Part shown: positions 1 through 31,500 of the stretch, one piece after another | Layout of the letters: the number at the start of each line of letters is the position of its first letter | How positions within the stretch are numbered: the stretch's first letter is position 1 | Origin: a virus | Virus record (IMG/VR): IMGVR_UViG_3300042880_000420 | Span: 32,001 to 96,000 of that record | DNA length: 64,000 nt | Direction: 5' to 3' (one strand) | Program-made: the position numbers and the translations under genes | The notes under the pieces: generated by a model | Databases searched by the model: none | What the model was told of the DNA's origin: nothing | What the model saw: only the letters and a program-made list of their open reading frames with translations

Positions 1-450
1 CAGATAAAACCCCGTCTTCTTTATTAACTTCATTTATTGCATTTCTTAAGTTTTCAGCATGTTTAGGATCTTTTAATATTCTTTCCTGTGTTGTTTTAAA
101 AAGATTTTCTAAAGCCATCACCCATTTTCTTTGTTCAGGGGTAAGTTTGCTTTTATCCATTTCAATTATATTAACCGTAAGATGGTGCATTAATTCATGC
201 ATTATAACATCTTGTAAAGCATTTATATTTTCAGGATCAGATTCAAATGCAAGTTTTGGATTTACTTTAATTATTTTTTCAAATTTATTGTAAGTTCCAG
301 GATTTGCTAATGTTTCATCAATAATAATTTGAAGATTACCAACACCGCCTGTTTTTGATACTAATGAAAGTATTTCTTTATAAAAAGGTTCAGCATCTTT
401 ATATAAATTATTAAGTGCTGTTTTTGTATTTGCTTTTTTATCTACTCCAA
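1..450 (-). other. Zincin-like metallopeptidase domain (partial) within the giant RNAP protein
   Basis: PGTYNKFEKIIKVNP...DVIMHELMHHLT: HExxH at 185-199, preceded by G-x-Y...I-x-V-N strands. Confidence 0.7.
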
Positions 451-3400
451 ATATATTTGTAGTTGCTTCTTCTATCTGATTTGCAACCAATCCTTTTAAA
501 AATATATCATCAAAATCTACTATTTCAATTTCTTGTTCTTCTTCAATTTCAACTATATCTGATTTTAATTCAGAACTTTTATTTAATGGTGCAGAATTAT
601 TTGTGTCTGTTATAGCACCTAAAAATACTTCCTGATTATTTACTATATTAGAACCAGCAGGTTTAATAATAATTAATCTACCACTTGTTCTTGTAAGGGC
701 AACATACATAGAACTAAATATATCGTCTTGATTTACATTAGCAGCAAGATTTCTTTTAATATTATAATCACCAACAATTACATTTTTAATACTATTACCT
801 TGAGCTGTATGAGAAGATCCTATGTATGAAGGTACATAAGGAGGTGTAAATCTTTCATTTAATTCATCTAATTCCGATTTTAATTTAATATAATCTCCAT
901 ATTTTAAATTAAACTTTGCAATGATTTCTCCTGTTTTGTTATTTTTAATTTCAATTCCTTCTTGTTGTTTTGTAATTGGATTATATTTACCATATGTAAA
1001 TTCTCCTGTTTTTGGATTTCTTTCTCCACTTATTTCAAAACCAAGTATTTTATGTATATGCCTAACTCTATTTTGTCTATTATAAACTATAGTGTGTTCA
1101 ACTTCTACTTTAGTTCCTTTGTTAAAATAACGCATTAAAGCTGGAGATACATAATTTTCAATATTTTCAAAATTAGAAAATACATCTAACACTTTGAATC
1201 TTGCACCTGGTTTTATTGCACCTTTTGTTATTTTATATTTACCATCTTGAACACGATATTTTTGTTGAGATAATATTTTTTCAATTTTATTATCACTTGG
1301 TGTATACTCATAATCACTTGTAGAAATTTCAACTTTACCATCAAAAATTATATAATCTTGATTAGTATATAATCTATGTGCTGGAGTTGATGAATCAATT
1401 TCCAATTTTCTAAAATATTCATTTCTTATTTTAGTTGCTATGTTTTTTGTATTTGCATGTTCAACATTATTGTAATGCACCCAAAACATTCCATATGGAT
1501 TATTATTATTAATTAAATAATCAGTGTAGTCATCTATCACTCCATTTTCATTTGTAACTACAAGCATGTTTTCTGTTGATTGATTTGTCAACTTATCATA
1601 ATTTTCAAATGATAATTTTTGAACAGCCGCACCAGATTGTAAATTATTAATATTTTTAATAATTTGATTTCCAATAGAATCATACATTTTGTGTAATTGT
1701 TCATTATCTGAACGCATCACTTGAGTTAATTCTTTAGTTTTATTTTTATCCAAAAGTAATGTAGAAGAAATAACACCTTTATTAACATCAGAAGATTGTT
1801 GTTCACCAATTGGTCCTAATTGTCTATAATCTCCCATAAATATAAATACAGGCAATCTACTTATTAATCCATTATTAAGATCTTGTTTTAATCTTAATAT
1901 CATATCTGAAATATCTTTTTTACCAATCATTGAACTTTCATCAACAATTATAATATCAGGTCTTCCCATTGAAGGTTTAAACTGAGTAGAATTTATATAC
2001 TCTTTTTCTGAAGCTAAAGATAAAATTCCATCCACCATTCTATTTCTTCTTGTGTGGGCGGCAATTGTATTAACAGTTCCATCATTAGCATATTCACTAT
2101 CAAGACCTAATGATTCTTGAAGCACCGTGCTTGCAGTATGTGTAGGAGCTAAATACATTATACTTGGTTGAGTATATTTACTTTTACCCTCTATAGCAGC
2201 CATTATAGCTTTAATAACAGTGGTTTTACCAACACCACCTCTACCAGCTAGTCCAATCATATTATTCCACATATCAACTGGAATCAATCCATTGAATTGC
2301 TTTGTAAGAGGAGATGTAAATATTACTGTTTCATCTAAATTCTCAGCTTTAATTTGTTTTTTATTAGCCAGTAATTCTTCAACTTTATTTTTAATAAAAT
2401 TAAATGCTTCTTGTTGTCCATCATTCATTAAATAAATAGTATCATCTGTTTCCATAATGACATTATTATTTGGATTAGAACCTTTAGGAACATTAATTCT
2501 TTTTTCTGGTTTAGCAAGTGTTTCCTCTATAACAGGTGTCGGTCTGGTTTCTTCTGTAAGTATTACAGGAACCTCTATTTCTGATTTATCATTATATAAT
2601 GACATCACTCTTTTAGTAATATCTTCAGATTGTATAACATCTCCAAAACTTGTTTTTTGTAATGATCTTATAGATCCTTCAAGATCAACAAAATATTTAG
2701 GTTGATTTTGAATATTAGTAAGAGTTACCACCCAATCAGGATGTAAATTAACTTCATGTGTTAATATAACTTTAGATAATAAATTAGCATCTGAAACAGG
2801 TTGACCTTTTTCACCTTGAGCTTGGAAATAAACATTATATCCATCCTCCATAGTTCCTTCAATAATATAGTTTTTACCACCATATTCTACTACACTTGAT
2901 TTAACTTCCGGTTGTTCTTCTATTACTTCTTCTTCAGTTTCTTGTGTAGGTTTAGTAGTTTTTATAGAAAGTAATTTACTAAATTCTTCTTCAAACACTA
3001 TATTATCAGGAATAGGAAATGCACTAAACATGTCAGCCATATCCTGATCTGTATAACCATTTAAGTTTTTCTTACCGTCTACTCTGTATGCTACTAAAAA
3101 CTCTTTATCAGGATTTTGTTTAGCAAAATCATATAATTCTTTGATATTACTTTGAATTTGTTCTGGAGTTAAACTCTTTTCCCCAGCTTTTTCATACTTA
3201 ATACCTGTTTGTTTTTCTACAAATCCTGCTGTAAGATTTTTTGTAACTAAAGCATATGATTGATTTTTCAATCCTCTTCCTACAAATTGTACTGCACCAA
3301 ATTTATTTTTAGCTTGTTGAGCAGCACCGGCACCATGTCTTCCTTGTGGATTAGAACCAAATACAAATATTTGATTAGGTTGTAATGATTCAATTTTACC

Positions 3401-6400
3401 TTGATATGTTTTTACAGGTTCTGTTGTTTCTACAGATGTTACATTTTCATATGCTTCATTTAAAGATTTAATAAACCAATTATTACCACCTGTTTCCCAA
3501 ACACTATTTTGTTTAGTAGGTTGATGAGTAGAATTTAATATCCATTCAGAACCACCTTGATTTGTTATTTCATCAACTAATCTTGGATGTTGTTGAAGTT
3601 TAGCTGTAATAATATTTACCATTAAATTGTAAGTACTATTAGGTCCTTCATCTTTTGTAGCTGTAGATTTTAATGCTTGATATGCAGCTTCAGCATCTTT
3701 ATAAGTTTTACCTTGAAATTCTACAGGATAAGATTGTGTAAGATTGCCTTTTGATTTAGCTAATTCTGTAGGATTTGTAAGAGCAGCAGCTAAACCTGTA
3801 GCATTAGAAGATATTTCTACACCTGGTTTTACTTCTGTAGTTGCAGTAGGTTGTGCAGATTTAAATGTATTTTCATATACATCTCTAATAGCTTGTAAAG
3901 ATTTATTTATAACTTCTTCTGTTGCTAATGTTCTACTTCCAATACCAGCAAAATTTTTAGTAAGTTTTGGTGTTTCTGTTGGTACAAAGTTTTTTACTTT
4001 ATAATCATAAGTATACCACCCTTCTTTAGTACCATCAAATACATATACAGGTTTACCTTCATTAATTGCCATTTGAACAGCATAACCTGTTCCACCTTTA
4101 ACAATAGGAACAGCAGCTATTCTTGTTTCACCTGCTTTATCAGATGCATTTTCACCAGGTTGTTTAATAGTACCTAATGCATAAATAGCGTCTGCATTTT
4201 TAACTTGCATCCAATTTCTTATAATATATGCACTTCTTACTGATTTATTTCCAGCATCAGTAAACATCATTCTAAAAGCTTGTGTAGCTTTTTGTGCACC
4301 TTCATTATAATCTTTTTGTTCTATATAAGTAGGTTTAATACCAGCAGTTTGTAATTTTTTAGAATCTAAAGTTTTACTTCCTTTTGCTGCTTGTCCTTTT
4401 GTATCAATATATTCTAAAGGTTCTCTGTAATGTTTATGTTCAATTACCCCAAATTCTCTACCAATTTGATCCCATTCAGTATCAGATAAAGCTGCACCAC
4501 CTGAATGGTTAGTATAATCAGCAGGATTAAGTATACCTTCTTGTGTTGTAATTGGAGCGGGTGCTATAGGTTTTTCAATTTCTGATTCAGTGGTTTCATT
4601 TCTATTTACATTATTCATAGGAATAGAAGAAACTAAATCTGGATTATTAAAATCAAATTCAGAAATGTTTTTATATCCTAATATTTCTACTCTTTCATAT
4701 GTTGCACTACCATCTTCTGTAGCAATATCACTTGTACGTTTATACAAATATGATGTAAATTGATTATATACACCGGGTATATCAGAAACAACTTCATCAG
4801 AAAGTAAAATATACGCAGGGTATTTAAAACCAATATTAATTAGTTTTTTATCTCTAATGTATGTAGAATCTGCATCACTCAACGGAACTTGTAATGACTG
4901 TCTTATTCCTTTTAATTTAACATCATTTTCAGGAAAGTCTGCAAGCTTTAATGTAAAATTAGAAACATCTTTTAATGATTCTTTTTTAATTATGTTTTTA
5001 AATACTTTCTTAAATGTAGAATCCGAAATTCCTCTTTCTGTATGACGTGTGGTAAAATTAAAAGATTTAGAAAATGTATCAGGATAGTTTTGAACCATCT
5101 GATCAATTAATATTAATTTAGATTTATCATTACTAATATGATCTGAATATATTTTTTCAAAGTTTTTCATTGCGTTATTAAACTCAGGATCGGAATTATA
5201 ATAACCAATTGGAATATATCTACCTATAAAACCAGCATCTCCAGTGACATAAGGATATAATGCAAAATCTTTAGCTAATTGTTTAATCTCATCACTATCA
5301 TCTAAAGCCAATTCATAAAAACCTGACATCACTTCTCTAACATCAATATCTTGTCCAAAAGGTGCTTTAAAAGAAATAGTGTATGTTTCAGATGAATAAT
5401 CTTTTTCAACATCAATATTCTTTAAAAATCCGTTTTTAGCATATTTAGGATTTTGTTTAAGCTCAATTGTTCTAAATCCAATTGATGTCTTTCCGTTTAT
5501 TAATTTTTCTCTTTCTAAAATAACGTTATCAAATAGTTCAAAAGAAGGACTGGTGTATATATATGATGTTATAGAATTAAATACCGTATTGTAATAAGTT
5601 TCATAACTATTTTTAGATAGCTTTGATTTATCAACACCCATAAAATTTAAAACAACATCTACAATTGATTCAAGATGTCTACCAGAACTTATTGGAAATA
5701 ATTGTTTATAAACATCATTTTGTGCAAAAATTAATGAGTTTGCAATAGCAGAACCAATTTCACCAACAGGGTCAATTTCCATGTCTCCTGTAAAATCATT
5801 TTTGGCAATCTCTCCTGCAATATTATTAATTCCAGAAAAATTAGTTGTAAAACTTAATTTGTTGAGTTGATAAAGTTTTTGTTTTGTTGCAAATACATTA
5901 GGTCCAATTCCTTTAGTATAAGGATACACCACACCCAATATTATCATTAATTCTCTTCCTAAATTCTCTAAACGTATAAATGTATCAATAGCATTGTATT
6001 GTGTATTATAATACGTAAGCATCATATCTTTAACAGAATCATATTTGAAATCCTTTGCCAGTTGTTCAAATATTTCAACACCTGCTTTTTGAGCAATTGC
6101 TTTACCAATTATCCACGTTTCTGCTAATGTTTCAGCATCAATAACTGAATTTCTTTCTTTATTATTAACATCAAAATAAGATTCTGCTGTTTTACCAGAT
6201 GGTAAATATTTTTCTTTATCAATTGTTTGAATAATTGTATTCTGAATTTCTGATGAAGAATTAATTAATGCATTAAAATCATATGCTCCAAAAGAATCTT
6301 GTTTTTGTTCTGTAAGTTCAAATAATTTTACTATTGCAGGTTGAGATGCAAGATCCATCATAAATTCAATAGGTGCTGCTTGACCTTTAGCATCTGACAA

Positions 6401-9400
6401 CATTGCAAAAAATCCTACAGCAGACATTGCTTTTTCCGTCCAGTTGAATTCTCTAAGGTATTGATTCTTAGCATTATCCACTGATTCAGTAAACATAATG
6501 TTTAAGTTATCAGAAATAGATCTTTTCTTATCAATAAATGAAGTGGATTCACCAAGTTTACCAATGTACAAAAGATCAATTATTTCACCATCTTTAGATA
6601 GTTTAATTTGAAGTGGATTGGGTGTATCTTCGGCATCTGCAAGAGACATCACTTTATCTTGAAAATCTGCTTGTGCAGAAATTAAATTAGCAAATACACC
6701 TACTCCCACCTTACCAGATCTATTATCAATATATCTGTTAATAGATGTCATAAAATCTAAAGGTAAATTAACAGTGATGTCTTCAACTAATTTATATTTT
6801 TCAAGTTGTTTTTTTCTCATTTCAACTTTATCTCCAACCTCAGGCATATCAATTGACTTAGTAATTTTGGAGAAAGTTGCAGAATTCATTAAAACTTCCC
6901 AGTGTATATCTCTATATAATTGATTAAGTTGATCTTCTGTAAAATTTGCAACATCCTTTATTGATTCTAAATTATATGTTACATCATTAAATTTATTATC
7001 TACATAATTAAATTTACTTATATAAGCATAAAGTTTATCTACGTCAAAGTCAGAACCCATTTGTCCTGTAATACCATCAGGTACAACAATTGAGTTTTCC
7101 ATATATGATGGAAGAAATCCTACCACTTCAATAGGAAGAGTGGAAGGATGAGATTGATTGGGAATACGTGTTCCAATAAGTTGAAACATTTTTTCACTAA
7201 AAGATGATGTGTTTAATATTTTACGACCATATTTATCTTCTGTAATATATTTAGATAAATCAATTAGATTACCATCTTCATCTCTTAAATATTGTGATAC
7301 AATAACTTGAGCTGCTTTTGTTTTGCCATTCTCTTGTCTTATATATTTTAATTTAGCATCTTCTTTAGCAAATTCATCAGAATATTTATCAATCCATATA
7401 ATACCTGATTTTACACCTTTGCTAATTTTACTAAAATTATACTTAGCACCAACACCACTCACTTGTATAAATGAAGTTCCTTCCACCTTTAACATTACAT
7501 TCTTATTAATAAGACTATTAATAAGACTTTGAAATTTAGGAAGTGCCCATTGTGCTTCTAATGGAATTTTAAATTTTTTAGTTGTAGGATCTAATTCAAT
7601 AGCTTGTAAATCTGCTTCAGAATAAGATCCTGTTGTATCATTAAGAATAACATTCTTCAGCAGTCTGTAAATGTTTTCATGTGTTTTATTTAAATTACCA
7701 AGCTCTTCCCTTAAACGATTTGCATGTATATCAAACAATTTAGATCTTACAGCTTCTTTAAGTTTTTTGCCAGTTTCACCAGATACATTAGACATATTAC
7801 CAAATGTAAAAGTTTTTACATTCAATAGTCCATCAAATAATGTACGATTCATTTGCGTAACCGTAGCAATTTCATCTTTTTGTTCTGGTACTTCCTGTTG
7901 ATTTCTGATACCACTTCTGCTTAACAGTTGTTTAGATGCTTCAAAATCTTCTTTACTTGGTTCAATAAAATTATTATTTTCATCAAATAATTTTAAAGAT
8001 TTACTTGGTCTTCCAAGTTTTTTAGCAGATGCAAAATTAACAGAACGAACACTGTTTTTTTCCATCCACGCTCTTAGTTTATCTCTTTCACTTCCCGCTT
8101 CATGTTGAGGAATTAAAGGATATCTGGATGATTTAACATAGTCTATTCTATTTAAACCACTAGCATCATCACCTATCTTAGAATAATATACATAAACAGG
8201 TTTAACGGGTGACATAACTATCTTTATTTCTTCTTCAGATAGTTCATAATATTCACCTGGTTTTATTTTATTATAAATTGATTCCCAACTATCTAAATCA
8301 ATTTTACCTTCACTCATTAAATAATCAATATGTTCTTGCAACGTGACAAATTCTTGAGCATCTGTAATCTCACTTTTATTTAAAACATCACCATTGATAT
8401 TTTTAACAGTTGTTTTTACATCTTCAGAAGTAATTGTAATATAATCTTGTCCAGCGTCATTATATGCTTTACCGTTTGATCTGTTCCAAAACCAATTACC
8501 TTGTGTGCCAGGAGCAATTAACGCAGCAGCACGTTTTGAAAATTCATCCCATGTTGAATTAGCAATACTCACTTTTTCTTCAGAAGATAAATCAGATATA
8601 TTTTTATCTTGTAATTTAATTTTAGTTTTAAAATTAAGTGCGGGATCAAATTTTAAAAACTGAATTGTTTTAATTTGAGAATTAAGATAATTAAGTTTCA
8701 TATCCAGAACCATCAGTCTTGCCATATCACGACCCTTGGCAGCTGTTTGTCTAAACCTATTTACATAATCGTTATTATTATATCCATTAATAAATAAGGG
8801 ATATGTATAATTATTTCTATCATCTTTTTTAATTATACCTAAAGAAATTAATTCATCTATTTGTTTTTCAACATCAGTTCTTAATTCATTTAAAACAGCT
8901 TCTCCAACCAGTTCTGAATATTTATTTGCCAACTGTTGCAAATCAAAATTTCCACTGTAAAGATCATTTCTAAACTCTTGAAGATTTTCATTTCTGTTTA
9001 AATTTGGGAGAAAATAAAAAAGCTTTGAAGCAATGTCATAATTTTCAACATTAATCTTAGATTTATTATTCATTGAAGAAATTATTCTAGAAACTTCTGG
9101 AGCAACAAGTTCATTATATATTTTTCTTTTTAATTTTGAAGTGTAAACAATTTTATCATCAACAATATTATAATCAGATTTATAACCAACTGGATTTGTT
9201 TCACTGTCTACAAAAAATTCTTTTGTCATTCTCGTTTCCATTCCTGTTGTTTTATCAGATAATGTAAACGCGATGTATGTACCAACATTTAAATTTTGTT
9301 GGTGTTGTAAAAACATTGTAACAATTTGATCTTTGGGGGTAAGACTTTTTCTTATCTTACCTTTTTGACTACCTTTTTGTTCTCTTATGCCATTAAAATA

Positions 9401-12193
9401 ATCTAATTCAAATGTAGATTGATTTCTAACCACTTTGTTCCAAAAATCAGATGCTGTTTTGGCTAAAGCAGAATTTGTAACAACAAGATTGCCATTACTA
9501 AATTCTCTTTTAATTTGTTCTAAATAACTGGGAAGAATATAAGAATATTTACTCTTACCATCTGCCGTTTTTGTAGATGTAATTTTATATTTTGCAGGAT
9601 TTGCTTCATAATATATTTTGGCAATTTTTTTCATAGATGTACTCTCATCCTGAAAACCATATTGACCAATAAAAGGAGTCTCAATATTTTTTGTAAAAGA
9701 CTCAAGAATATTCTCTAAAAGATTTTTCTTTTGAAATAAAACATTGAAACCTGCTTTCTTTAATGTTTTAGGAAGTTTTTTATAAATAAATTTTATTTCA
9801 TTATCTGTAAAGTTTATACCAAGAACATTAAAAAATTCTTGAAACTTTTTTTGTTGATCTACATCTGATTTATTTAAACCTTCCTCAATAATATTTTTTA
9901 ATTCATCTAATTTTTCTTGTTTTGGAAAAAGATTATTTAAAGCATCTTTTCTGTAAAAATCTGATTGTTTATGTTGTTCTAACCATTCTTTAGAAATTTG
10001 TAAATCAACACTATCTCTATTTGTAGAAATGATTTTAGAATCTTTTACTCCAAACACTTCAGATCCAACTTTAACAAGTTTATATAACAGCAATGTTTCA
10101 ACTGCATAAGATTTACTTGCAACAGTTAAAATATCATTTATTTTTGCAAAATCGTTTGTCTCAACATATTTATTAATTTTATCAATTAAATTATTAAGAT
10201 ATTTTCTTTGCTCCGCTCTAATTGCAAGACCACTTAAAAATTGCGTCAGTTTAGTATTATCAGCAGTAAAGTTTGTTAAATCTATTTCTGATCCAACCTC
10301 TAAAATATCAGCAAATACATCATTTGGATTTGCATAGATGGGAATGCCGAACTCTGTTTTTCCGGTGTATATTGTTTGTATTAATGCTTTAACTCTAATA
10401 CTTGCTGTATCTCTAGGATTAGTTTCAAAAACATTTTTATCATATCTTTCACCTATTTCTTTTTGAGATATTTCTGCACTATCTTCACTTTGATCTTCTT
10501 CATTATTTGTATTATCTGTTACAATAACATTTTCTATTTTATTTTTTACAATTCTAAGTCCATTGCGAGCCAAATCAAGTTTTACAAAATCAACATATCT
10601 ATCAAATTTTTCAACAATATTTGTATATATAGTTAACGCTTTTTTTAAATCTTCATAAGAATTTATATATTTAAGTAAATCAAATTTATTAACCATTTCA
10701 GAATATACATCTAAGCTCTTTATAGCTTGATAGTCTTCTTCAGAAGTAATAAAATCATTTAATATACCTGCTAATTTATTTTGTATTCCAACAAATGTTT
10801 TTTTAGATTCATTAAACGCCTGTTCTGGAGACATTTTTAATTTTTTTCCAGGACCAAGATCTCCTAAATTAAAAAGAACCATTGTTTTAATAAAACCTGA
10901 ATATTTAATTTCATCAGAAGATCTGAGCAATTCAGGATTAATACCTTTAGATAAATCTTCTAAAGACTTAGTTTTTATAGAATATAATACATCTTTCTTT
11001 TCTGTAGTATTAGTTTTACCACCAACAAAATTCTTAAATCCTTCTATATCTGCTTTAGATGAAAGTATGTGTATTTGTTCTGGTTCAAAAACAGCTATTT
11101 CTGTTATATAATCTTTTTTATGAGCTTTTAAATAGTCATCAGATTCCATATCAGTGTAAAAAGCATCATAATTATTACTTTTTAATTCTTTAAACTTTTC
11201 ATTATCTATTAAGGATATATCATCAATAGATCTAGTATATTTTGGGTTTTTTACATTTAATAAACTTGGTAAAACCGCTTTGTTAGTTTTATCTGTATAT
11301 GTATAAACTCCATTTGAGTAACTTTCTGCTGTTTCTTTATTCTGAGTAAAATAAACACCATTTAATTCTATATTACTCATCTCTTCATCAATAAACTTAA
11401 ACTTAAAATCTGTATTTTTTAATATGTTTTTTCCATTAGGACTACCATGATAAACAATATCTTTTACTTTACTATCAGGAAATATGGTATCAAGATATTG
11501 AGAGTATAGTTGTATAGCTTGTTGTTTCTGTTGGGGGGTTATTTCTTTTTTTGCTACAGGTTTCTTAATATTGATTAATAAGTCTATATACTCAGAAAAA
11601 GCGGTATTAGTTATAGCGCTAAGTACATCTTTTCCTTTAAATCTATTTCCTTGTTTATACTCCTCAATATCTTTTCTTATACCTCTGGTTTTTATATCTC
11701 CTAGCCATGAATAAAAATCTCGACTACTTAAGAATTTTGAATCATCCTTATACTTATCACTACTAGCAAGTTTAGATTTAATGAGTGTGTACAGTTCTTG
11801 GTCAGTTGATTCATCTAAAATCTCAACTATTTTATTTAATCTATCTATATCATAACCATTAAGTTTATTTTCTCTATATGGTATATATTCATAATAATTA
11901 TCTCCAAAAGGAGGTAAATCATCGGGTAATCCTAATTCATCAATTTGATTTTTTTGTTTAAACCCTAAAGCTTCATATACTTGATTAGCTAACTCAGGAT
12001 TCTCATTGAACAGTTCTTCTACTCCTGGTTTAACTTGTTCTTTGTTTTCTGTTTCAAATACAGGTTCAACAATATCATAATTATCAGCCGATGGTATATA
12101 TCCATACGAATAGAATTCTCTATAGGCATTAGTTTCGCCTATTTTATCTACTAATAATTTCCATTCAGCACTTTTAATGTTAGGACAAATCAT
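1..12193 (-). CDS. Giant polyvalent virion RNA polymerase, crAss-like two-barrel RNAP (>4,060 aa, runs off the left edge). Fused domains in order: ART-PolyVal, RNAP core, SLOG, NADAR, macro-like, SF1B helicase, zincin peptidase
   Basis: ATG at 12193 (MICPNIKSAEW...). Absent from the ORF track, consistent with no stop before the window edge. Manual translation: LIGTRIPNQSHPSTLPIEVVGFLP...GQMGSDFDVDKLY (DFDVDK at 7034-7051), Walker A GRGGVGKT (2222-2245) and HELMH (185-199), all in frame with the ATG. Its position after two large cargo genes matches crAss-like phages (phi14:2 gp66-type RNAP). Confidence 0.93.
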   Translation of the reverse strand, partial: MICPNIKSAEWKLLVDKIGETNAYREFYSYGYIPSADNYDIVEPVFETENKEQVKPGVEELFNENPELANQVYEALGFKQKNQIDELGLPDDLPPFGDNYYEYIPYRENKLNGYDIDRLNKIVEILDESTDQELYTLIKSKLASSDKYKDDSKFLSSRDFYSWLGDIKTRGIRKDIEEYKQGNRFKGKDVLSAITNTAFSEYIDLLINIKKPVAKKEITPQQKQQAIQLYSQYLDTIFPDSKVKDIVYHGSPNGKNILKNTDFKFKFIDEEMSNIELNGVYFTQNKETAESYSNGVYTYTDKTNKAVLPSLLNVKNPKYTRSIDDISLIDNEKFKELKSNNYDAFYTDMESDDYLKAHKKDYITEIAVFEPEQIHILSSKADIEGFKNFVGGKTNTTEKKDVLYSIKTKSLEDLSKGINPELLRSSDEIKYSGFIKTMVLFNLGDLGPGKKLKMSPEQAFNESKKTFVGIQNKLAGILNDFITSEEDYQAIKSLDVYSEMVNKFDLLKYINSYEDLKKALTIYTNIVEKFDRYVDFVKLDLARNGLRIVKNKIENVIVTDNTNNEEDQSEDSAEISQKEIGERYDKNVFETNPRDTASIRVKALIQTIYTGKTEFGIPIYANPNDVFADILEVGSEIDLTNFTADNTKLTQFLSGLAIRAEQRKYLNNLIDKINKYVETNDFAKINDILTVASKSYAVETLLLYKLVKVGSEVFGVKDSKIISTNRDSVDLQISKEWLEQHKQSDFYRKDALNNLFPKQEKLDELKNIIEEGLNKSDVDQQKKFQEFFNVLGINFTDNEIKFIYKKLPKTLKKAGFNVLFQKKNLLENILESFTKNIETPFIGQYGFQDESTSMKKIAKIYYEANPAKYKITSTKTADGKSKYSYILPSYLEQIKREFSNGNLVVTNSALAKTASDFWNKVVRNQSTFELDYFNGIREQKGSQKGKIRKSLTPKDQIVTMFLQHQQNLNVGTYIAFTLSDKTTGMETRMTKEFFVDSETNPVGYKSDYNIVDDKIVYTSKLKRKIYNELVAPEVSRIISSMNNKSKINVENYDIASKLFYFLPNLNRNENLQEFRNDLYSGNFDLQQLANKYSELVGEAVLNELRTDVEKQIDELISLGIIKKDDRNNYTYPLFINGYNNNDYVNRFRQTAAKGRDMARLMVLDMKLNYLNSQIKTIQFLKFDPALNFKTKIKLQDKNISDLSSEEKVSIANSTWDEFSKRAAALIAPGTQGNWFWNRSNGKAYNDAGQDYITITSEDVKTTVKNINGDVLNKSEITDAQEFVTLQEHIDYLMSEGKIDLDSWESIYNKIKPGEYYELSEEEIKIVMSPVKPVYVYYSKIGDDASGLNRIDYVKSSRYPLIPQHEAGSERDKLRAWMEKNSVRSVNFASAKKLGRPSKSLKLFDENNNFIEPSKEDFEASKQLLSRSGIRNQQEVPEQKDEIATVTQMNRTLFDGLLNVKTFTFGNMSNVSGETGKKLKEAVRSKLFDIHANRLREELGNLNKTHENIYRLLKNVILNDTTGSYSEADLQAIELDPTTKKFKIPLEAQWALPKFQSLINSLINKNVMLKVEGTSFIQVSGVGAKYNFSKISKGVKSGIIWIDKYSDEFAKEDAKLKYIRQENGKTKAAQVIVSQYLRDEDGNLIDLSKYITEDKYGRKILNTSSFSEKMFQLIGTRIPNQSHPSTLPIEVVGFLPSYMENSIVVPDGITGQMGSDFDVDKLYAYISKFNYVDNKFNDVTYNLESIKDVANFTEDQLNQLYRDIHWEVLMNSATFSKITKSIDMPEVGDKVEMRKKQLEKYKLVEDITVNLPLDFMTSINRYIDNRSGKVGVGVFANLISAQADFQDKVMSLADAEDTPNPLQIKLSKDGEIIDLLYIGKLGESTSFIDKKRSISDNLNIMFTESVDNAKNQYLREFNWTEKAMSAVGFFAMLSDAKGQAAPIEFMMDLASQPAIVKLFELTEQKQDSFGAYDFNALINSSSEIQNTIIQTIDKEKYLPSGKTAESYFDVNNKERNSVIDAETLAETWIIGKAIAQKAGVEIFEQLAKDFKYDSVKDMMLTYYNTQYNAIDTFIRLENLGRELMIILGVVYPYTKGIGPNVFATKQKLYQLNKLSFTTNFSGINNIAGEIAKNDFTGDMEIDPVGEIGSAIANSLIFAQNDVYKQLFPISSGRHLESIVDVVLNFMGVDKSKLSKNSYETYYNTVFNSITSYIYTSPSFELFDNVILEREKLINGKTSIGFRTIELKQNPKYAKNGFLKNIDVEKDYSSETYTISFKAPFGQDIDVREVMSGFYELALDDSDEIKQLAKDFALYPYVTGDAGFIGRYIPIGYYNSDPEFNNAMKNFEKIYSDHISNDKSKLILIDQMVQNYPDTFSKSFNFTTRHTERGISDSTFKKVFKNIIKKESLKDVSNFTLKLADFPENDVKLKGIRQSLQVPLSDADSTYIRDKKLINIGFKYPAYILLSDEVVSDIPGVYNQFTSYLYKRTSDIATEDGSATYERVEILGYKNISEFDFNNPDLVSSIPMNNVNRNETTESEIEKPIAPAPITTQEGILNPADYTNHSGGAALSDTEWDQIGREFGVIEHKHYREPLEYIDTKGQAAKGSKTLDSKKLQTAGIKPTYIEQKDYNEGAQKATQAFRMMFTDAGNKSVRSAYIIRNWMQVKNADAIYALGTIKQPGENASDKAGETRIAAVPIVKGGTGYAVQMAINEGKPVYVFDGTKEGWYTYDYKVKNFVPTETPKLTKNFAGIGSRTLATEEVINKSLQAIRDVYENTFKSAQPTATTEVKPGVEISSNATGLAAALTNPTELAKSKGNLTQSYPVEFQGKTYKDAEAAYQALKSTATKDEGPNSTYNLMVNIITAKLQQHPRLVDEITNQGGSEWILNSTHQPTKQNSVWETGGNNWFIKSLNEAYENVTSVETTEPVKTYQGKIESLQPNQIFVFGSNPQGRHGAGAAQQAKNKFGAVQFVGRGLKNQSYALVTKNLTAGFVEKQTGIKYEKAGEKSLTPEQIQSNIKELYDFAKQNPDKEFLVAYRVDGKKNLNGYTDQDMADMFSAFPIPDNIVFEEEFSKLLSIKTTKPTQETEEEVIEEQPEVKSSVVEYGGKNYIIEGTMEDGYNVYFQAQGEKGQPVSDANLLSKVILTHEVNLHPDWVVTLTNIQNQPKYFVDLEGSIRSLQKTSFGDVIQSEDITKRVMSLYNDKSEIEVPVILTEETRPTPVIEETLAKPEKRINVPKGSNPNNNVIMETDDTIYLMNDGQQEAFNFIKNKVEELLANKKQIKAENLDETVIFTSPLTKQFNGLIPVDMWNNMIGLAGRGGVGKTTVIKAIMAAIEGKSKYTQPSIMYLAPTHTASTVLQESLGLDSEYANDGTVNTIAAHTRRNRMVDGILSLASEKEYINSTQFKPSMGRPDIIIVDESSMIGKKDISDMILRLKQDLNNGLISRLPVFIFMGDYRQLGPIGEQQSSDVNKGVISSTLLLDKNKTKELTQVMRSDNEQLHKMYDSIGNQIIKNINNLQSGAAVQKLSFENYDKLTNQSTENMLVVTNENGVIDDYTDYLINNNNPYGMFWVHYNNVEHANTKNIATKIRNEYFRKLEIDSSTPAHRLYTNQDYIIFDGKVEISTSDYEYTPSDNKIEKILSQQKYRVQDGKYKITKGAIKPGARFKVLDVFSNFENIENYVSPALMRYFNKGTKVEVEHTIVYNRQNRVRHIHKILGFEISGERNPKTGEFTYGKYNPITKQQEGIEIKNNKTGEIIAKFNLKYGDYIKLKSELDELNERFTPPYVPSYIGSSHTAQGNSIKNVIVGDYNIKRNLAANVNQDDIFSSMYVALTRTSGRLIIIKPAGSNIVNNQEVFLGAITDTNNSAPLNKSSELKSDIVEIEEEQEIEIVDFDDIFLKGLVANQIEEATTNIFGVDKKANTKTALNNLYKDAEPFYKEILSLVSKTGGVGNLQIIIDETLANPGTYNKFEKIIKVNPKLAFESDPENINALQDVIMHELMHHLTVNIIEMDKSKLTPEQRKWVMALENLFKTTQERILKDPKHAENLRNAINEVNKEDGVLS
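670..2430 (-). other. SF1B (Dda/RecD2-like) helicase domain within the giant RNAP protein
   Basis: Complete motif set in order: Q (NDGQQEA), I (GRGGVGKTT), Ia (LAPTHTA), II (IIVDESSMI), III (FMGDYRQLGPI), IV (LTQVMRS), V (SSHTAQGNS), VI (YVALTRTS). Confidence 0.9.
2980..3410 (-). other. Macrodomain-like (A1S_2505-type phage) domain within the giant RNAP protein
   Basis: QIFVFGSNPQGRHGAGAAQQAKNKFGA...SYALVTK...IKELYDFAKQNPDKEFLV...NGY; the N-x-x-G-x-H-G-x-G-A-A loop resembles the macrodomain ADP-ribose-binding loop. Confidence 0.6.
3450..3832 (-). other. NADAR (YbiA-like) domain within the giant RNAP protein
   Basis: YPVEFQGKTYKDAEAAYQALK...LMVNIITAKLQQHPRLVDEI...VWETGGNNW resembles the NADAR pattern G..Y...E..YQA.K / M.....AK..QHP.L / W....N. 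Confidence 0.65.
3870..4530 (-). other. SLOG-superfamily (YspA/MoCo-carrier-like) nucleotide-binding domain within the giant RNAP protein
   Basis: NHSGGAALSDTEW...IRNWMQVKNADAIYALG...KGGTGYAVQMAINEGKPVYVFD...FAGIGSR: SGGA, RN...AD and GGT..A...A...KPV motifs typical of SLOG domains. Confidence 0.75.
11030..11520 (-). other. ADP-ribosyltransferase (ART-PolyVal-like) domain within the giant RNAP protein
   Basis: YSQYLDTIFPDSKVKDIVYHGS (HGS 11441-11449)...NGVYFTQNKETAESY (11345-11359)...LLNVKNPK...YDAF...EIAVFEPEQIHIL (11072-11101): the H-G-S / G-x-Y-F-T / E-x-x-V-F-x-x-x-Q-I pattern of ART-PolyVal. Confidence 0.75.
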
Positions 12194-25247: not shown

Positions 25248-25285
25248 TATATTATTAATTTACTTAATTTTATTGAGATGTCCTA
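25248..25285 (-). promoter_or_regulatory. Putative late promoter
   Basis: TAG-N20-TAAATTAATAATATA upstream of 25207. Confidence 0.4.
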
Positions 25286-28531: not shown

Positions 28532-31500
28532 TTATTTTTGAGATATTTGAAGTTTTGTATTAATAAATTTGAATATCATTTTAATATCCCCTCTTCCATC
28601 TACACCTTCTTTTCTTATTTCTGGAGGATTCTTTCTAAGAAGCACCTTGCTTACATTGTGTCTAAATTTCTTTTTCTGTGTAGACGACTTATAATAATCT
28701 ACACTAAAAGGATTTACAAACCAGTTATATCCATTAGGAAATGTTGTTGTAAGAATATTTTCGACACCACTAAATTCTCCTCTGTCTTTTGTAATATCAT
28801 TAAACTGATTAAATCTATATTTTTGTTCTTCTTTAGAGAATAATATTTCTGTAGATCCTGTAGGATTAATTATTGGATAATTAAGATATTGGAAAGGATT
28901 AGACTTAGATTTTAAATTAAGATTAAGCAATCCAGATATTTGTTCTGAGTTATAAACAATAGCTGAATCAAAGTTATAATCTAATAAATGAAACTTATCT
29001 TGTCCATTAGCACTATACTTATATGCTTCTAAATAATATTCTACATTACGCATTGTAGTAACAGTAGTTCCTGTTGGAAATGCATATTCTATTTCAAATG
29101 GATGATAGGTACCATAAAAATTACAAAAATCATCCCATCTGTCGTTATGTCTCCACAATCCAGTTTGTGTTTGAAAACAAGTTTTATATGCTGTATAAAA
29201 ATGTCTCTTAGAAGGAAGCATAAATGTAGGATGCCAATCATGAAAACTAATCCATTGTTTATTCTTTACATCATAAGAAATAGTCCAAGATGCATCTTCA
29301 AAATATGCAGGGTCACATAATGAAATAGGAATTTTAGAAAAAACACTAACAGGAGGAAGTATTTCTGTGTTATATTCTAAAGATTCTGTTAATGTATATA
29401 CACACACAGGTTCTTCCACACCATATGTATATTCTAAAACACCAGCACCTGAACAAGTATATTCATAATCTATAAATTCAGATTTATCATTTGTTGTAAA
29501 TATTACATTAAGATCAGAAAATGAAGTTGCATTTAATATTTCAAATTGTGTATTATCTATTAATGCAGCACCAAATCCTTCATAGGAGCCCTCAAGCTTT
29601 AATGTGTTGTTAACTTCAGTTATCTGTATAGGATAGATATGAAGATATGTATTAGATACATCATCACCAGATGAACCCGGAAGTCTACTATCAGCATTCA
29701 TTGCAGCAAGATCTGGATCTAATATTACCTGACCATTTAATGTAATTCTAAAATTAGTATATGCTGTAGTAGGGTCTACACTATAAGAACATATTGCAAC
29801 ATAATAAATCTTTTCATTAGGTACATTATTCAAATAAATATTATATGTAATTGTATCATTAGGAATACCAGATGTAGCTGTTGTCTTAATCATTAGATAG
29901 TTTACAGGTCCATCTGAAGATGTTCCTGTATCATTAATCCAAAAATTATTAAGTTGTCCAATATTAGTGTATGTACCAACAGCTGAACCATTATATCCAA
30001 GATCATACAATGCAGTTCCTAATGTGCCATATGTTACACTTCCTAAAGGTTCTGTAGAATAATTAGTTGTAGATATTACAGGTGGCTCTGTTGTAACTTG
30101 TTGACATTGACCATTTATATACTGATATCCAGGAGGACAGTCATATGTATATAATGGCTCTACATTAACATTTATATTTCCATTATTTAAATAAAATCCA
30201 AATGCAGGATCGTATTGTATATCATTACGTTTTGGTATATAGTCTCTTTTAGAAAAATATACCACCTCATTAATATTGTCATATACAGTTGTTATACCAG
30301 CACCAATAACAGGATTATCACTTAAATTAAAATTAGGAAAATAATTAATAAGTTGTAAAGGAAGATATCTGCTAAACCACCATTTCATATTTGATTTAGA
30401 AATTTCTTCAAGTTGTCCCGTGTATGCAAAAATCTTACCTTGGTCTTGACTTACATAGAATACACCATAAGGTGTAGATGTAATACCCCATCTGCTTTGA
30501 CATGAACCATATTCATATATTTGGTCTGAATTAACAAGACTCTGTAAAGGTTGATTAAATAATCCTCCATCTCCAATTGTTACTTTAATTCCTGTATCTG
30601 TTTGTAAACTATCAACACCCATAATTTGCATTGGGGATTGTCTATCTAACATTATTAAAGCACCTGTTTTATTTATTTGTTTTACAGAAGTAACTTTAGT
30701 AGGCATGTCTTTATAGTTATTAACTAAAAAACTTTGCCAATTATCACGTTTAAGTTCTTCTTGTTGCGGTAAAGAATATTGAATTCTTCTTGGATAATAA
30801 GTGTAACATGTAGCCGCTACAAGTGGATTAAATGAACGTGGTAAAACTTGACCCCATGTAACAAATTGATTATACATTCTAGATACAGAAAGAGAATAAT
30901 CATACTTATAAAATGCTGAAAATTTTACATAATCGCTTCTAAATAATGTAACAAGGTCTGTGTATCCATAAGGATCATAAAATCTTTTGCTTGCTTCATC
31001 TTCCCAATCTCTATATCCAACATTCACTTCAGATTCTACAAAAAAATCTCTTACACCATTGCAAAATAAATAAAAGTTAGCAGCATCTACTTTCCAACCA
31101 GGATCGCCATTATAATCTTTACCAACAATAGTACCTCCTTTGTTAAGTCTATAATATTTTTTAGGGCTTATTAAAATAGAATTGTCCACATATTGTTTTC
31201 TATTATCTACAAAATAATATGTACCGACAATATTTTGATATTGTAAATAGTTATATGTAACATCTTCCGGTTGTTCAATAAGCCAATCATTAAAATATAA
31301 ATAATTATTTTTCTCTGTGTACCGGTTTAAATATATGTCACCACCGAATAATATTGGTACTTCATTTATTGTATATACACAACTAGAAATGGGAATTTGT
31401 CTAATAGAATCAATCTGCCCATACTGCGATGCAAAATCTACTTTAATTGCACCATAATTAGATGATATTGTTCTTGTAAAACAATCCCCATTTACACCTA

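What the first reader, a model, noticed from the sequence alone, without database searches (positions are those of the whole stretch)
2980..11520. Virion RNA polymerase carrying an ADP-ribose writer/reader/eraser set (ART + SLOG + NADAR + macro-like)
Seen: one reading frame holds an ART-PolyVal-like domain before the RNAP core and tandem SLOG, NADAR and macro-like domains right after it. Established: NADAR and macrodomain are the antitoxin folds that remove ADP-ribose from DNA in DarTG1 (guanine) and DarTG2 (thymidine). SLOG and macro domains are the signal-sensing modules of ThsA in Thoeris. crAss-like vRNAPs are packaged and ejected. Inference: this protein may arrive with the DNA to reverse host ADP-ribosylation defences or absorb ADPR signals, while its own ART modifies host targets (cf. 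T4 Alt). This would be a pre-loaded counter-defence system tethered to the transcribing enzyme. Polyvalent proteins with these domains are known, but this full combination on a vRNAP deserves testing.
Basis: partly seen in the sequence, partly recalled or inferred. Interest (0 to 1): 0.88.

Follow-up and report, generated by a model that had tools for sequence, protein, structure and literature searches.

The report
ADP-ribose enzyme cassettes on crAss-type polymerase
The giant RNA polymerase that this crAss-like phage most likely packs into its particle also carries an ADP-ribosyltransferase and three small domains with folds known to bind or remove ADP-ribose. Close relatives swap these domains like cassettes, so they are probably ready-made host-takeover and counter-defence tools, which is a new variant of a published strategy.

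Summary
One uninterrupted minus-strand ORF of 4187 codons runs from window 12193 to 372 nt past the left edge.

It contains, in order:
- an ART-PolyVal domain, above Pfam's cut-off, with its H-Y-D residues present;
- a crAss-type virion RNAP core (E 3e-21 to phi14:2 gp66, DFDVD aligned to DFDID);
- a cpYpsA/DprA-like SLOG fold (Z 11.9);
- a shortened His-type NADAR-like domain, supported only by several weak lines;
- an A1S_2505-family domain with a clear macrodomain fold (pLDDT 94; Z up to 10.3; TARG1 and DarG among the best matches);
- an SF1B helicase and an HExxH zincin.

Orthologues with the same backbone carry other inserts at the same two slots: no ART; AlkB-like instead of SLOG; a canonical NADAR; macro only. 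Among 75 giant relatives the three domains are shuffled around DFDxD polymerase cores.

The counter-defence reading is plausible but untested. The concept is already published: polyvalent proteins including ART fused to N4-type vRNAP (Iyer 2017), virion-packaged SLOG/NADAR/Macro sets (Iyer 2022), and phage NADAR and macro counter-defence factors (AdfN, DarG2-like). I found no paper describing it on crAss-type polymerases. This scan has already noted the same theme in at least 8 other genomes. Verdict: new variant of a known kind.

The parts
1..12193 (-). Giant polyvalent vRNAP gene, 4187 aa. The last 123 codons plus the stop lie 372 nt beyond the window's left edge (G000:C1:31630-32000).
   Evidence: ORF list. 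Open frame of 4189 codons without stops. The start is confirmed because residues 1-49 match the first 49 residues of orthologues P0149 and P0042.
10982..12046 (-). Cassette slot 1, aa 50-404: the ART cassette. The ART-PolyVal core is aa 246-375 (window 11069-11458), with H249, Y281 and D343.
   Evidence: Pfam PF18760, 37.9 bits against a cut-off of 31.2. 233 homologues, most of them carrying PF18760. Conserved columns in alignment A6. aa 50-404 are absent from orthologues P0149 and P0042, which join residue 49 to residue ~405.
6995..8371 (-). crAss-type two-barrel RNA polymerase core, aa 1275-1733. The metal-binding motif DFDVD is at aa 1715-1719 (window 7037-7051).
   Evidence: phmmer against PDB 6vr4_A (phi14:2 gp66), E 3.3e-21, with the motif aligned to DFDID. 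PHROG 16227 virion structural protein, E 9e-40. tblastn matches crAss-like Flavobacterium, Bacteroides and Cellulophaga phages.
3860..4558 (-). Cassette slot 2, first unit: SLOG-fold domain (cpYpsA/DprA-like), aa ~2546-2778. Motifs HSGGA (aa 2563) and GGTGYAV (aa 2700).
   Evidence: Model pLDDT about 90. VIA: 3imk Z 11.9, then DprA 6.8/6.5/6.2, YpsA 5.9, ShosA 5.6. One relative gives a weak cpYpsA Pfam hit, E 0.085. A homologous stretch in crAssphage cr113_1 gp38 is annotated 'DprA-like'.
3449..3859 (-). Cassette slot 2, second unit: shortened NADAR-like domain of the phage His type, aa 2779-2915. Residues E2835, K2842, H2890, and W-E-x-G-G at 2899-2903.
   Evidence: Pfam NADAR E 0.055 and NCBIfam NADAR E 0.06. 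hhalign of A9 against A10, E 1.4e-4 over 115 columns. YbiA Z 5.7 and PnNADAR Z 5.2. ESM neighbours are NADAR and Phage_30_3 clusters.
2945..3448 (-). Cassette slot 2, third unit: macrodomain-fold domain of the A1S_2505 family, aa 2916-3083. Residues N2948, G-R-H-G-A-G at 2951-2956, T2984-K2985, N-G-Y at 3045-3047.
   Evidence: NCBIfam NF049995, 97.3 bits. phrog_2072. Model pLDDT 93.9. Foldseek finds TARG1, TTHA0132, DarG and CHIKV macro at probability ~1.0. VIA Z 10.3 to 8 for more than 20 macrodomains, including Mtb DarG at 9.7.
494..2266 (-). SF1B (RecD/Dda/PIF1-like) helicase, aa ~3310-3900. Walker A GxGKT at aa 3317-3324 (window 2222-2245).
   Evidence: Pfam AAA_30 E 1.5e-15, AAA_19 E 8.5e-12, PIF1 E 2.4e-4.
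1..496 (-). C-terminal zincin-like region with HELMHH at aa 3999-4004 (window 182-199). It continues beyond the window.
   Evidence: The motif is seen in the translation. Only weak SprT and Peptidase_M1 hits, E 0.04-0.19. The region is conserved in orthologues P0002, P0149 and P0042.
28532..33922 (-). Context: crassvirus muzzle protein gene lying before (5' of) the polymerase gene on the same strand, separated from it by five large ORFs (684-1769 aa).
   Evidence: Pfam crAss_MUZ E 1.1e-21. PHROG virion structural protein.

Best explanation
This is the virion RNA polymerase of an environmental crAss-like phage, built as a 'polyvalent' ejected protein.

The conserved backbone has four parts: a 49-aa N-terminus, a two-barrel RNAP with DFDVD, an SF1B helicase and an HExxH zincin. 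It has two slots where effector cassettes are gained, lost and exchanged.
- Slot 1 holds an H-Y-D ADP-ribosyltransferase (ART-PolyVal).
- Slot 2 holds a cpYpsA/DprA-like SLOG domain, a shortened His-type NADAR-like N-glycosidase domain, and a TARG1/DarG-like macrodomain-fold domain of the A1S_2505 family.

The most likely mechanism is inferred, not shown. The protein is packaged and enters the cell with the DNA, as its homologue phi14:2 gp66 does.
- The ART uses host NAD+ to modify host targets, by analogy with T4 Alt.
- The NADAR-like and macro-fold domains reverse ribosyl or ADP-ribosyl adducts on the incoming phage nucleic acid. Such adducts could be DarT-type guanine or thymine lesions, and the reversal would happen next to the helicase and polymerase.
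- The SLOG domain binds or cleaves a nucleotide-derived ligand.
- The zincin may cut the chain into its modules.
For: Shown here:
- The ORF is intact and the folds are as named.
- Putative catalytic or ligand-binding residues are invariant or nearly so across the family alignments.
- Cassette behaviour: orthologues P0149 and P0042 lack aa 50-404. In slot 2, P0002 has an AlkB-like 2OG-Fe(II) oxygenase in place of the SLOG, P0149 has the SLOG plus a canonical Pfam NADAR (45.7 bits), and P0042 has only the macro-fold unit.
- Among 75 relatives of at least 2000 aa, the three domains occur in many orders and combinations, mostly together with a DFDxD motif.
- In short relatives the domains are fused to NADAR, ART-PolyVal, DUF2493 (a SLOG family), DUF4326 and AlkB-like domains.

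Established elsewhere:
- crAss-like vRNAP is a virion component translocated with the DNA (bioRxiv 10.1101/2020.03.07.982082; PMC7886860).
- NADARs from several clades, including the His-type T4 AdfN, remove ADP-ribose from DNA guanine (PMC11543638, PMC11825919).
- A phage DarG2-like macro protein protects against host defence (PMC13309987).
- An AlkB-like unit in the same slot of a sister protein fits a theme of reversing nucleic-acid base adducts. This last point is inference.
Against: - There are no expression, proteomic or activity data for this protein.
- The NADAR-like domain lacks the central ~45 residues. In PnNADAR, pyrophosphate-contacting residues are numbered within that span (PMC11543638). 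It is far below Pfam's cut-off (14.2 against 35.1 bits) and does not BLAST-align to the canonical NADAR of P0149.
- The macro-fold family gives no hit to Pfam Macro models in any of 53 members. The equivalence of K2985 to the catalytic Lys of DarG or TARG1 rests on my recollection of those sequences, not on a superposition.
- Iyer et al. 2022 argue from context that phage Macro/NADAR/SLOG sets mainly target soluble ADP-ribose derivatives rather than macromolecular adducts (PMC9503650).
Confidence: 0.45

Rival explanations
1. The architecture and delivery are the same, but the SLOG, NADAR-like and macro-fold units act on small molecules. They would bind or degrade NAD+-derived immune signals or toxic metabolites (cyclic ADP-ribose isomers of Thoeris-type systems, ADPr-1''P and the like). 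Each domain would cut a different bond.
For: - Iyer et al. 2022 propose exactly this for phage SLOG+Macro+NADAR combinations, and note co-occurrence with DUF4326 (PMC9503650). Relatives of the macro-fold unit are fused to DUF4326 and to DUF2493 SLOG domains.
- The SLOG fold is a known ligand sensor.
- A macro-domain ThsA (8v6q) is among the structural matches, Z 7.5.
- The shortened NADAR-like domain may fit a small ribosyl substrate better than ADPr-DNA.
Against: - The phage NADARs and the DarG2-like macro protein that have been characterised experimentally act against the DNA-ADP-ribosylating DarTG systems (PMC11825919, PMC13309987).
- The best macro matches include DNA-ADPr hydrolases (DarG, TARG1).
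- An AlkB-like nucleic-acid repair unit occupies the same slot in a sister protein.
- A few packaged molecules would be a poor sink for a diffusible signal unless they are catalytic.
Confidence: 0.3
2. The eraser-type domains serve the phage's own ART. They would remove auto-modification, or protect the polymerase, helicase and phage DNA from the co-delivered transferase. This would make them a built-in immunity or timing module rather than a counter-defence.
For: - Writer and erasers sit on one chain.
- In the set searched here, ART-PolyVal co-occurs with the SLOG or macro-fold units in several giants (P0008, P0028, P0134, P0011). It is also fused to the SLOG unit in a short protein.
- UniProt names a cr116_1 giant 'ART-PolyVal-like', and that phage also encodes the macro-fold unit.
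Against: - Most giants that carry the three units lack a detectable ART.
- The close orthologues P0149 and P0042 keep slot 2 units without the ART, and P0002 retains at most a C-terminal remnant of the cassette. The erasers therefore do not depend on the writer.
Confidence: 0.1
3. The extra domains are non-catalytic. They would be nucleic-acid- or ligand-binding modules that help package, eject or load the polymerase. One example would be DprA-like ssDNA binding that places the RNAP on the entering genome.
For: - DprA proteins are the second-best structural matches of the SLOG unit.
- In N4-like Klebsiella phage Pylas, a homologous SLOG unit sits inside an unrelated type of vRNAP. This suggests a polymerase-linked role.
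- The fused helicase fits DNA handling.
Against: - Residues at catalytic positions are conserved in the NADAR-like and macro-fold families.
- The domains are dispensable and interchangeable among orthologues, which would be unusual for a core mechanical role.
- Both families are common as free-standing ~130-160-aa phage proteins.
Confidence: 0.08

Closest known systems
Polyvalent proteins of phages and conjugative elements (Iyer et al. 2017, PMC5512222), e.g. the Roseovarius Plymouth podovirus 1 vRNAP, which has ART + N4-like RNAP + zincin MPTase
   Same: A giant virion-associated polypeptide that strings together unrelated effector domains. It has the same H-Y-D ART family (ART-PolyVal) fused to a virion RNAP and a zincin. 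The proposed Alt-like role at the start of infection is also the same.
   Different: The polymerase here is the two-barrel crAss type, not the N4 single-subunit type. The protein also carries a SLOG/NADAR-like/macro-fold train and an SF1B helicase. The zincin gives only weak hits to curated models.
Cellulophaga phage phi14:2 gp66, the crAss-like virion RNA polymerase (PDB 6VR4)
   Same: Homologous catalytic core (E 3.3e-21) with the DFDxD motif. The gene lies in a crAss-type late/structural block that includes a muzzle protein.
   Different: gp66 is about 2190 aa. This protein is 4187 aa, with two cassette slots, a helicase and a zincin. I did not examine gp66 for such inserts.
Phage NAD+/ADP-ribose-processing sets combining SLOG, Macro and NADAR (Iyer et al. 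2022, PMC9503650)
   Same: The same three superfamilies occur together, with partners such as DUF4326. That paper predicts they are packaged and deployed early in infection.
   Different: That paper describes the viral versions as typically stand-alone proteins or gene neighbours. It does not mention crAss-like phages. Here the three are fused in tandem inside the vRNAP.
AdfN (T4 gp30.3) and other phage NADAR anti-DarTG1 factors (PMC11825919); DarG1 NADAR (PMC11543638)
   Same: NADAR-type fold. The E-x6-K motif is present, and a His sits where most NADARs have Glu, as in the T4 group.
   Different: About 45 central residues are missing. The domain is not detectable above any curated threshold, and it is embedded in a virion protein. 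Its activity is unknown.
TARG1/DarG-class macrodomains and the chimallivirus DarG2-like counter-defence protein (PMC13309987)
   Same: Macrodomain fold (Z 8.6-9.7 to TARG1 and DarG) with a glycine-rich loop after the first core strand. A conserved Thr-Lys follows a central strand.
   Different: There is no sequence-level membership in Pfam Macro. The domain belongs to the uncharacterised A1S_2505 family. ADP-ribose binding has not been shown.
T4 Alt
   Same: An ART delivered from the capsid with the DNA.
   Different: Alt belongs to the unrelated R-S-E ART clade and is a free internal protein, not part of a polymerase.

Membership tests
crAss-like virion RNA polymerase (phi14:2 gp66 family) | Sequence homology to the solved gp66 core, including the DFDxD metal-binding motif | tested here: met
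   phmmer against 6vr4_A, E 3.3e-21. DFDVD aligned to DFDID.
crAss-like virion RNA polymerase (phi14:2 gp66 family) | Gene sits in a crassvirus late/structural block | tested here: met
   crAss_MUZ muzzle gene at 28532-33922 on the same strand, followed by large cargo-like ORFs. tblastn matches crAss-like phages.
crAss-like virion RNA polymerase (phi14:2 gp66 family) | Packaged in the virion and ejected; transcribes early genes | not testable with these tools
   Known for phi14:2 only (10.1101/2020.03.07.982082; PMC7886860).
ART-PolyVal (PF18760, Tox-ART-HYD2-like) | Score above Pfam's gathering threshold | tested here: met
   37.9-38.5 bits against 31.2.
ART-PolyVal (PF18760, Tox-ART-HYD2-like) | H (strand 1), Y (strand 2), D (strand 5) active-site residues (PMC5512222) | tested here: met
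   H249, Y281 and D343 fall in conserved columns of A6. The strand assignment was not checked by a model.
ART-PolyVal (PF18760, Tox-ART-HYD2-like) | NAD+-dependent ADP-ribosyl transfer | not testable with these tools
   -
SLOG superfamily (cpYpsA/DprA branch) | Rossmann-like SLOG fold | tested here: met
   3imk Z 11.9, rmsd 3.6, 148 of 158 residues. DprA, YpsA, LOG, MCP and ShosA follow.
SLOG superfamily (cpYpsA/DprA branch) | Match to a curated SLOG-family HMM | tested here: not met
   No Pfam or NCBIfam hit for the segment. One relative hits cpYpsA at E 0.085.
NADAR superfamily | Score above the curated threshold (PF08719) | tested here: not met
   14.2 bits against 35.1. NCBIfam 12.5 bits against 240.
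NADAR superfamily | Profile-level and fold-level similarity | tested here: inconclusive
   hhalign E 1.4e-4, probability 53%. YbiA Z 5.7 and PnNADAR Z 5.2, which are middling values for a helical domain. ESM neighbours are NADAR and Phage_30_3 clusters at 0.88.
NADAR superfamily | Conserved Glu and Lys seven residues apart, plus the Glu/Asp/His position (PMC11543638) | tested here: met
   E2835, K2842 and H2890 are invariant or nearly so in A9 and align to the T4 gp30.3 motif.
NADAR superfamily | Central segment (about 45 residues), the span in which PnNADAR's pyrophosphate-contacting residues K75-R93 are numbered | tested here: not met
   About 45 columns of the canonical sequences have no counterpart in the domain.
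Macrodomain superfamily | Three-layer alpha/beta/alpha macro fold | tested here: met
   pLDDT 93.9. 22 chains at Z >= 8, of which at least 20 are macrodomain structures. Foldseek probability 1.0 to TARG1.
Macrodomain superfamily | Match to Pfam Macro models | tested here: not met
   None of the 53 family members hits a Macro model at E <= 1.
Macrodomain superfamily | ADP-ribose binding or hydrolysis | not testable with these tools
   -
A1S_2505 family phage non-structural protein (NF049995) | Score above the curated threshold | tested here: met
   97.3 bits against 45, full profile length.
Polyvalent proteins (Iyer 2017) | Several unrelated effector domains in one large phage polypeptide encoded with virion genes | tested here: met
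   ART + RNAP + SLOG + NADAR-like + macro fold + helicase + HExxH in one ORF, encoded on the same strand as the muzzle gene 16 kb away.
Polyvalent proteins (Iyer 2017) | Zincin-like MPTase domain | tested here: inconclusive
   HELMHH is present. Only weak SprT and M1 hits, E 0.04-0.19.

The most novel reading that the evidence does not exclude
The vRNAP backbone would act as a docking platform with two defined slots, where phages exchange ready-made effector cassettes. The cassettes appear to open with stereotyped junction peptides such as VKPGVE. In this phage the set would form a complete ADP-ribose system acting in cis on the entering genome. The uncharacterised A1S_2505 macro-fold family and the shortened NADAR family would be new classes of base-ADP-ribose erasers (anti-DarT2 and anti-DarT1). 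They would be carried to the DNA by the helicase and polymerase before any phage gene is expressed.
Probability: 0.2. Interest if true: 0.75.

Novelty: new variant of a known kind. Interest (0 to 1): 0.5.

Why it matters
If the cassettes are active, crAss-like phages, including abundant gut and environmental ones, enter cells already carrying enzymes against NAD+/ADP-ribose-based immunity. That would help explain how they survive the period before their own genes are expressed.

Two very common phage protein families would also gain a testable function. One is A1S_2505, for which I found 284 stand-alone homologues within the length band searched. The other is a ~130-aa 'mini-NADAR'.

The slot-wise exchange among close orthologues gives a natural experiment for matching cassettes to host defences.

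The concept itself is published, and this scan has already noted it in other genomes. The value here is a well-resolved example with residue-level targets, not a new principle.

Tried and rejected
- phmmer of the 2131-aa middle part against the PDB found nothing. A 601-aa query around the motif found gp66, so the first negative result was an artefact of query length.
- Single-sequence and small-profile searches of the three domains against PDB sequences found nothing relevant.
- Merged multi-domain alignments A4 and A7 were misaligned and were not used. A5 was checked motif by motif before folding.
- Foldseek on the 546-residue three-domain model gave only weak rows. Domain-wise reading needed VIA and a separate model of the macro-fold unit.
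- hhalign of the small alignment A1 against single NADAR sequences was not significant.
- BLASTP of the NADAR-like unit against the canonical NADAR of orthologue P0149 found nothing. The two are positional replacements, not detectable homologues at that level.
- PADLOC models gave no DarG or Thoeris-type hit for any segment.
- The Pfam NADAR model finds nothing elsewhere in the phage genome.
- Literature searches for crAss-like or Crassvirales together with ADP-ribosyltransferase, macrodomain or ART-PolyVal found no description of this architecture. One search was wasted on word-start matches.
- I considered that the ORF might be an assembly chimera. I rejected this because three independent orthologues share the full backbone.
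- The second fold job went to the macro-fold unit, so the ART and the NADAR-like unit were not folded on their own.
Full report
**What is there.** The window is bases 32001-96000 of a 109-kb IMG/VR virus record estimated to be 91% complete. On the minus strand, one ORF starts at window 12193, runs off the left edge, and ends 372 nt further on. It is 4187 aa. A family search of the whole record reports the surrounding stop-to-stop frame as 4189 codons with no internal stop. The start codon is supported by two orthologues whose first 49 residues align to residues 1-49. On the same strand, about 16 kb before this gene, lies a crassvirus muzzle protein gene (Pfam crAss_MUZ, E 1e-21). Between them are five large ORFs of 684-1769 aa with few or no known domains. 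This is the layout of crAss-like phages.

**The carrier is a crAss-type virion RNA polymerase.** A 601-aa query around the motif matches the solved phi14:2 gp66 polymerase (PDB 6vr4) at E 3.3e-21. GSDFDVDKLY aligns to GSDFDIDKMY. PHROG 16227 ('virion structural protein') matches at E 9e-40. tblastn finds the same region in crAss-like Flavobacterium, Bacteroides and Cellulophaga phages. Packaging and ejection are established for phi14:2 (bioRxiv 10.1101/2020.03.07.982082; PMC7886860). For this protein they are only inferred.

**The four claimed domains.**

1. ART. Pfam ART-PolyVal covers aa 246-375 at 37.9 bits, against a cut-off of 31.2 (38.5 bits). I found 233 homologues, most of them pre-annotated with PF18760. 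Iyer et al. define this clade by H, Y and D residues (PMC5512222). H249, Y281 and D343 sit in conserved columns.

2. SLOG. No HMM recognises aa 2546-2778. A three-domain model (pLDDT about 90 over this part) matches the cpYpsA-type 'molybdenum carrier' 3imk at Z 11.9 (148 of 158 residues). This stands well above the matches that follow, which are all SLOG proteins: DprA, TM1055, YpsA, MCP, ShosA and LOG. The domain lacks a LOG-like catalytic Glu motif.

3. NADAR. The evidence is weak at each single step but consistent.
   - Pfam NADAR E 0.055 and NCBIfam NADAR E 0.06, on different parts of the segment.
   - The only natural folds matched over model residues 247-390 are YbiA (Z 5.7) and Phytophthora NADAR (Z 5.2).
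   - The nearest named language-model clusters are NADAR and Phage_30_3.
   - A 25-sequence family profile aligns to a small T4 gp30.3/NADAR alignment at E 1.4e-4 over 115 columns.
   - That alignment places E2835 and K2842 (seven residues apart, as E88/K95 in E. coli C7 NADAR) and H2890 on the known functional positions. The His is the substitution that characterises the T4 AdfN group (PMC11543638, PMC11825919).
   - It also shows that about 45 central residues are missing. In PnNADAR, pyrophosphate-contacting residues are numbered within that span (K75-R93). I therefore call the domain NADAR-like and do not file it as a member.

4. Macro-like. aa 2916-3083 is a full-length match to NCBIfam A1S_2505_Nterm (97.3 bits). 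Folded alone with 53 sequences it gives pLDDT 93.9. Foldseek's best rows are TARG1, TTHA0132, DarG, YmdB and alphavirus macrodomains at probability about 1.0. VIA gives 22 chains at Z >= 8, at least 20 of them macrodomain structures, including alphavirus nsP3 (10.3) and M. tuberculosis DarG (9.7, rmsd 3.1, 126 of 152 residues). No family member hits a Pfam Macro model. This is therefore a structural relationship, not a sequence-level one. Invariant residues cluster in three places: a glycine-rich loop after the first core strand (N2948, G-R-H-G-A-G), a Thr-Lys after a central strand, and an N-G-Y loop. As I recall it, these are the positions where macrodomains hold ADP-ribose and where DarG and TARG1 carry their catalytic Lys. 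I could not superpose structures to check this.

**The rest of the chain.** An SF1B helicase follows (AAA_30 E 1.5e-15). After it comes a C-terminal region with HELMHH that gives only weak zincin hits. The protein therefore fits the published definition of a polyvalent protein.

**The most informative result: cassette behaviour.**
- Three proteins share the whole backbone at 42-66% identity.
- P0149 and P0042 join residue 49 directly to residue ~405, so the ART is a discrete insert.
- Between the polymerase part and the helicase, the contents differ: this phage has SLOG + NADAR-like + macro fold; P0002 has an AlkB-like 2OG-Fe(II) oxygenase (31.0 bits, just under the cut-off) + NADAR-like + macro fold; P0149 has the SLOG followed by a canonical Pfam NADAR (45.7 bits); P0042 has the macro-fold unit alone.
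- A search of 1.8 billion representatives found 4074 proteins with one or more of the three units.
- Among the 75 listed hits of at least 2000 aa, the units occur in many orders, before or after the polymerase core. Most of these proteins contain a DFDxD motif.
- The SLOG unit also sits inside the unrelated N4-type vRNAP of Klebsiella phage Pylas. It is also in the 4329-aa gp38 of gut crAssphage cr113_1, annotated 'DprA-like'.
- The macro-fold unit is in the 'putative RNA polymerase' of the cultured Kolpuevirus 'frurule'.
- Short relatives fuse the units to NADAR, ART-PolyVal, DUF2493, DUF4326 and AlkB-like domains.

**Interpretation.** The folds, the conserved residues, the rapid exchange and the fusion partners all point to NAD+/ADP-ribose or ribosyl-adduct chemistry used in phage-host conflict. 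Which substrate is involved remains open.

I slightly favour reversal of adducts on the incoming nucleic acid (0.45). My reasons:
- The characterised phage NADARs and the DarG2-like macro protein act against the DNA-ADP-ribosylating DarTG systems.
- DarG and TARG1 are among the best matches of the macro-fold unit.
- An AlkB-like repair unit shares the slot in a sister protein.
- A helicase and a polymerase are on the same chain.

The rivals:
- The small-molecule reading of Iyer et al. 2022 is nearly as likely (0.3). The truncated NADAR and the sensor-type SLOG favour it.
- Self-regulation of the ART (0.1) is weakened because close orthologues keep the erasers without the ART.
- A purely structural role (0.08) is weakened by the conserved residues at catalytic positions and by the exchangeability of the units.

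**Novelty.** ART-PolyVal fused to a virion RNAP and a zincin is published for N4-type polymerases (PMC5512222). Virion-packaged ART, Macro and NADAR proteins, and combined SLOG-Macro-NADAR architectures, are published for phages (PMC9503650). That paper calls the viral versions typically stand-alone and never mentions crAss-like phages. Phage NADAR (AdfN) and DarG2-like macro counter-defence factors are experimentally known (PMC11825919, PMC13309987). My searches found no paper describing these cassettes on crAss-type polymerases, although database annotations already label pieces of them. Earlier notes of this scan describe the same theme in at least 8 other genomes. The verdict is a new variant of a known kind, of moderate interest.

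Noticed in passing
window 12017-12034 and 3815-3832 (minus strand): The hexapeptide VKPGVE occurs twice. One copy is at the start of the ART cassette (aa 54-59) and one at the start of the NADAR-like unit (aa 2788-2793). Similar K-P-G-V-E junctions precede the same domains in unrelated proteins (alignments A1, A6). It could be a shared junction for cassette exchange or for processing, or it could be chance.
   Followed up: partly
P0002 residues ~2391-2746 (sister protein): The closest full-length relative is also 4187 aa and shares 62-66% identity over the backbone. It has an AlkB-like 2OG-Fe(II) oxygenase (PF13532, 31.0 bits against a cut-off of 31.2) where this phage has the SLOG unit. It lacks most of the ART cassette.
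   Followed up: partly
L005:6001-6582 (Klebsiella phage Pylas, MH899585.1): A homologue of the SLOG unit (36% identity, E 8e-28) lies inside the N4-type virion RNA polymerase of a Schitoviridae phage. The same accessory domain has therefore been recruited by two unrelated kinds of packaged polymerase.
   Followed up: partly
L003:2492-2860 (Rhodobacter phage RcPescado gene 55): A 122-aa stand-alone homologue of the macro-fold (A1S_2505-like) unit is annotated 'ADP-ribosyltransferase'. On the fold evidence here that name is probably wrong: the fold is that of an eraser or reader, not a transferase.
   Followed up: no
window 22724-25207 and 25283-28525 (minus strand): Two of the large ORFs between the muzzle gene and the polymerase gene each carry one small recognisable module. 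One is a DUF3597-like/peptidase-associated stretch at aa 210-275 of the 827-aa ORF. The other is DUF5754 at aa 977-1024 of the 1080-aa ORF. Otherwise these ORFs have no known family.
   Followed up: no
window 4601-10993 versus 6794-8596: phmmer against the PDB found nothing with the 2131-aa query, but found gp66 at E 3e-21 with a 601-aa sub-query. This is a caution for long-query negative results.
   Followed up: yes
P0400, P0411: Stand-alone ~130-147-aa homologues of the shortened NADAR-like unit also occur in bacterial genomes (Microcoleus, Variovorax), with no Pfam annotation. The family is not restricted to phage polymerases.
   Followed up: no
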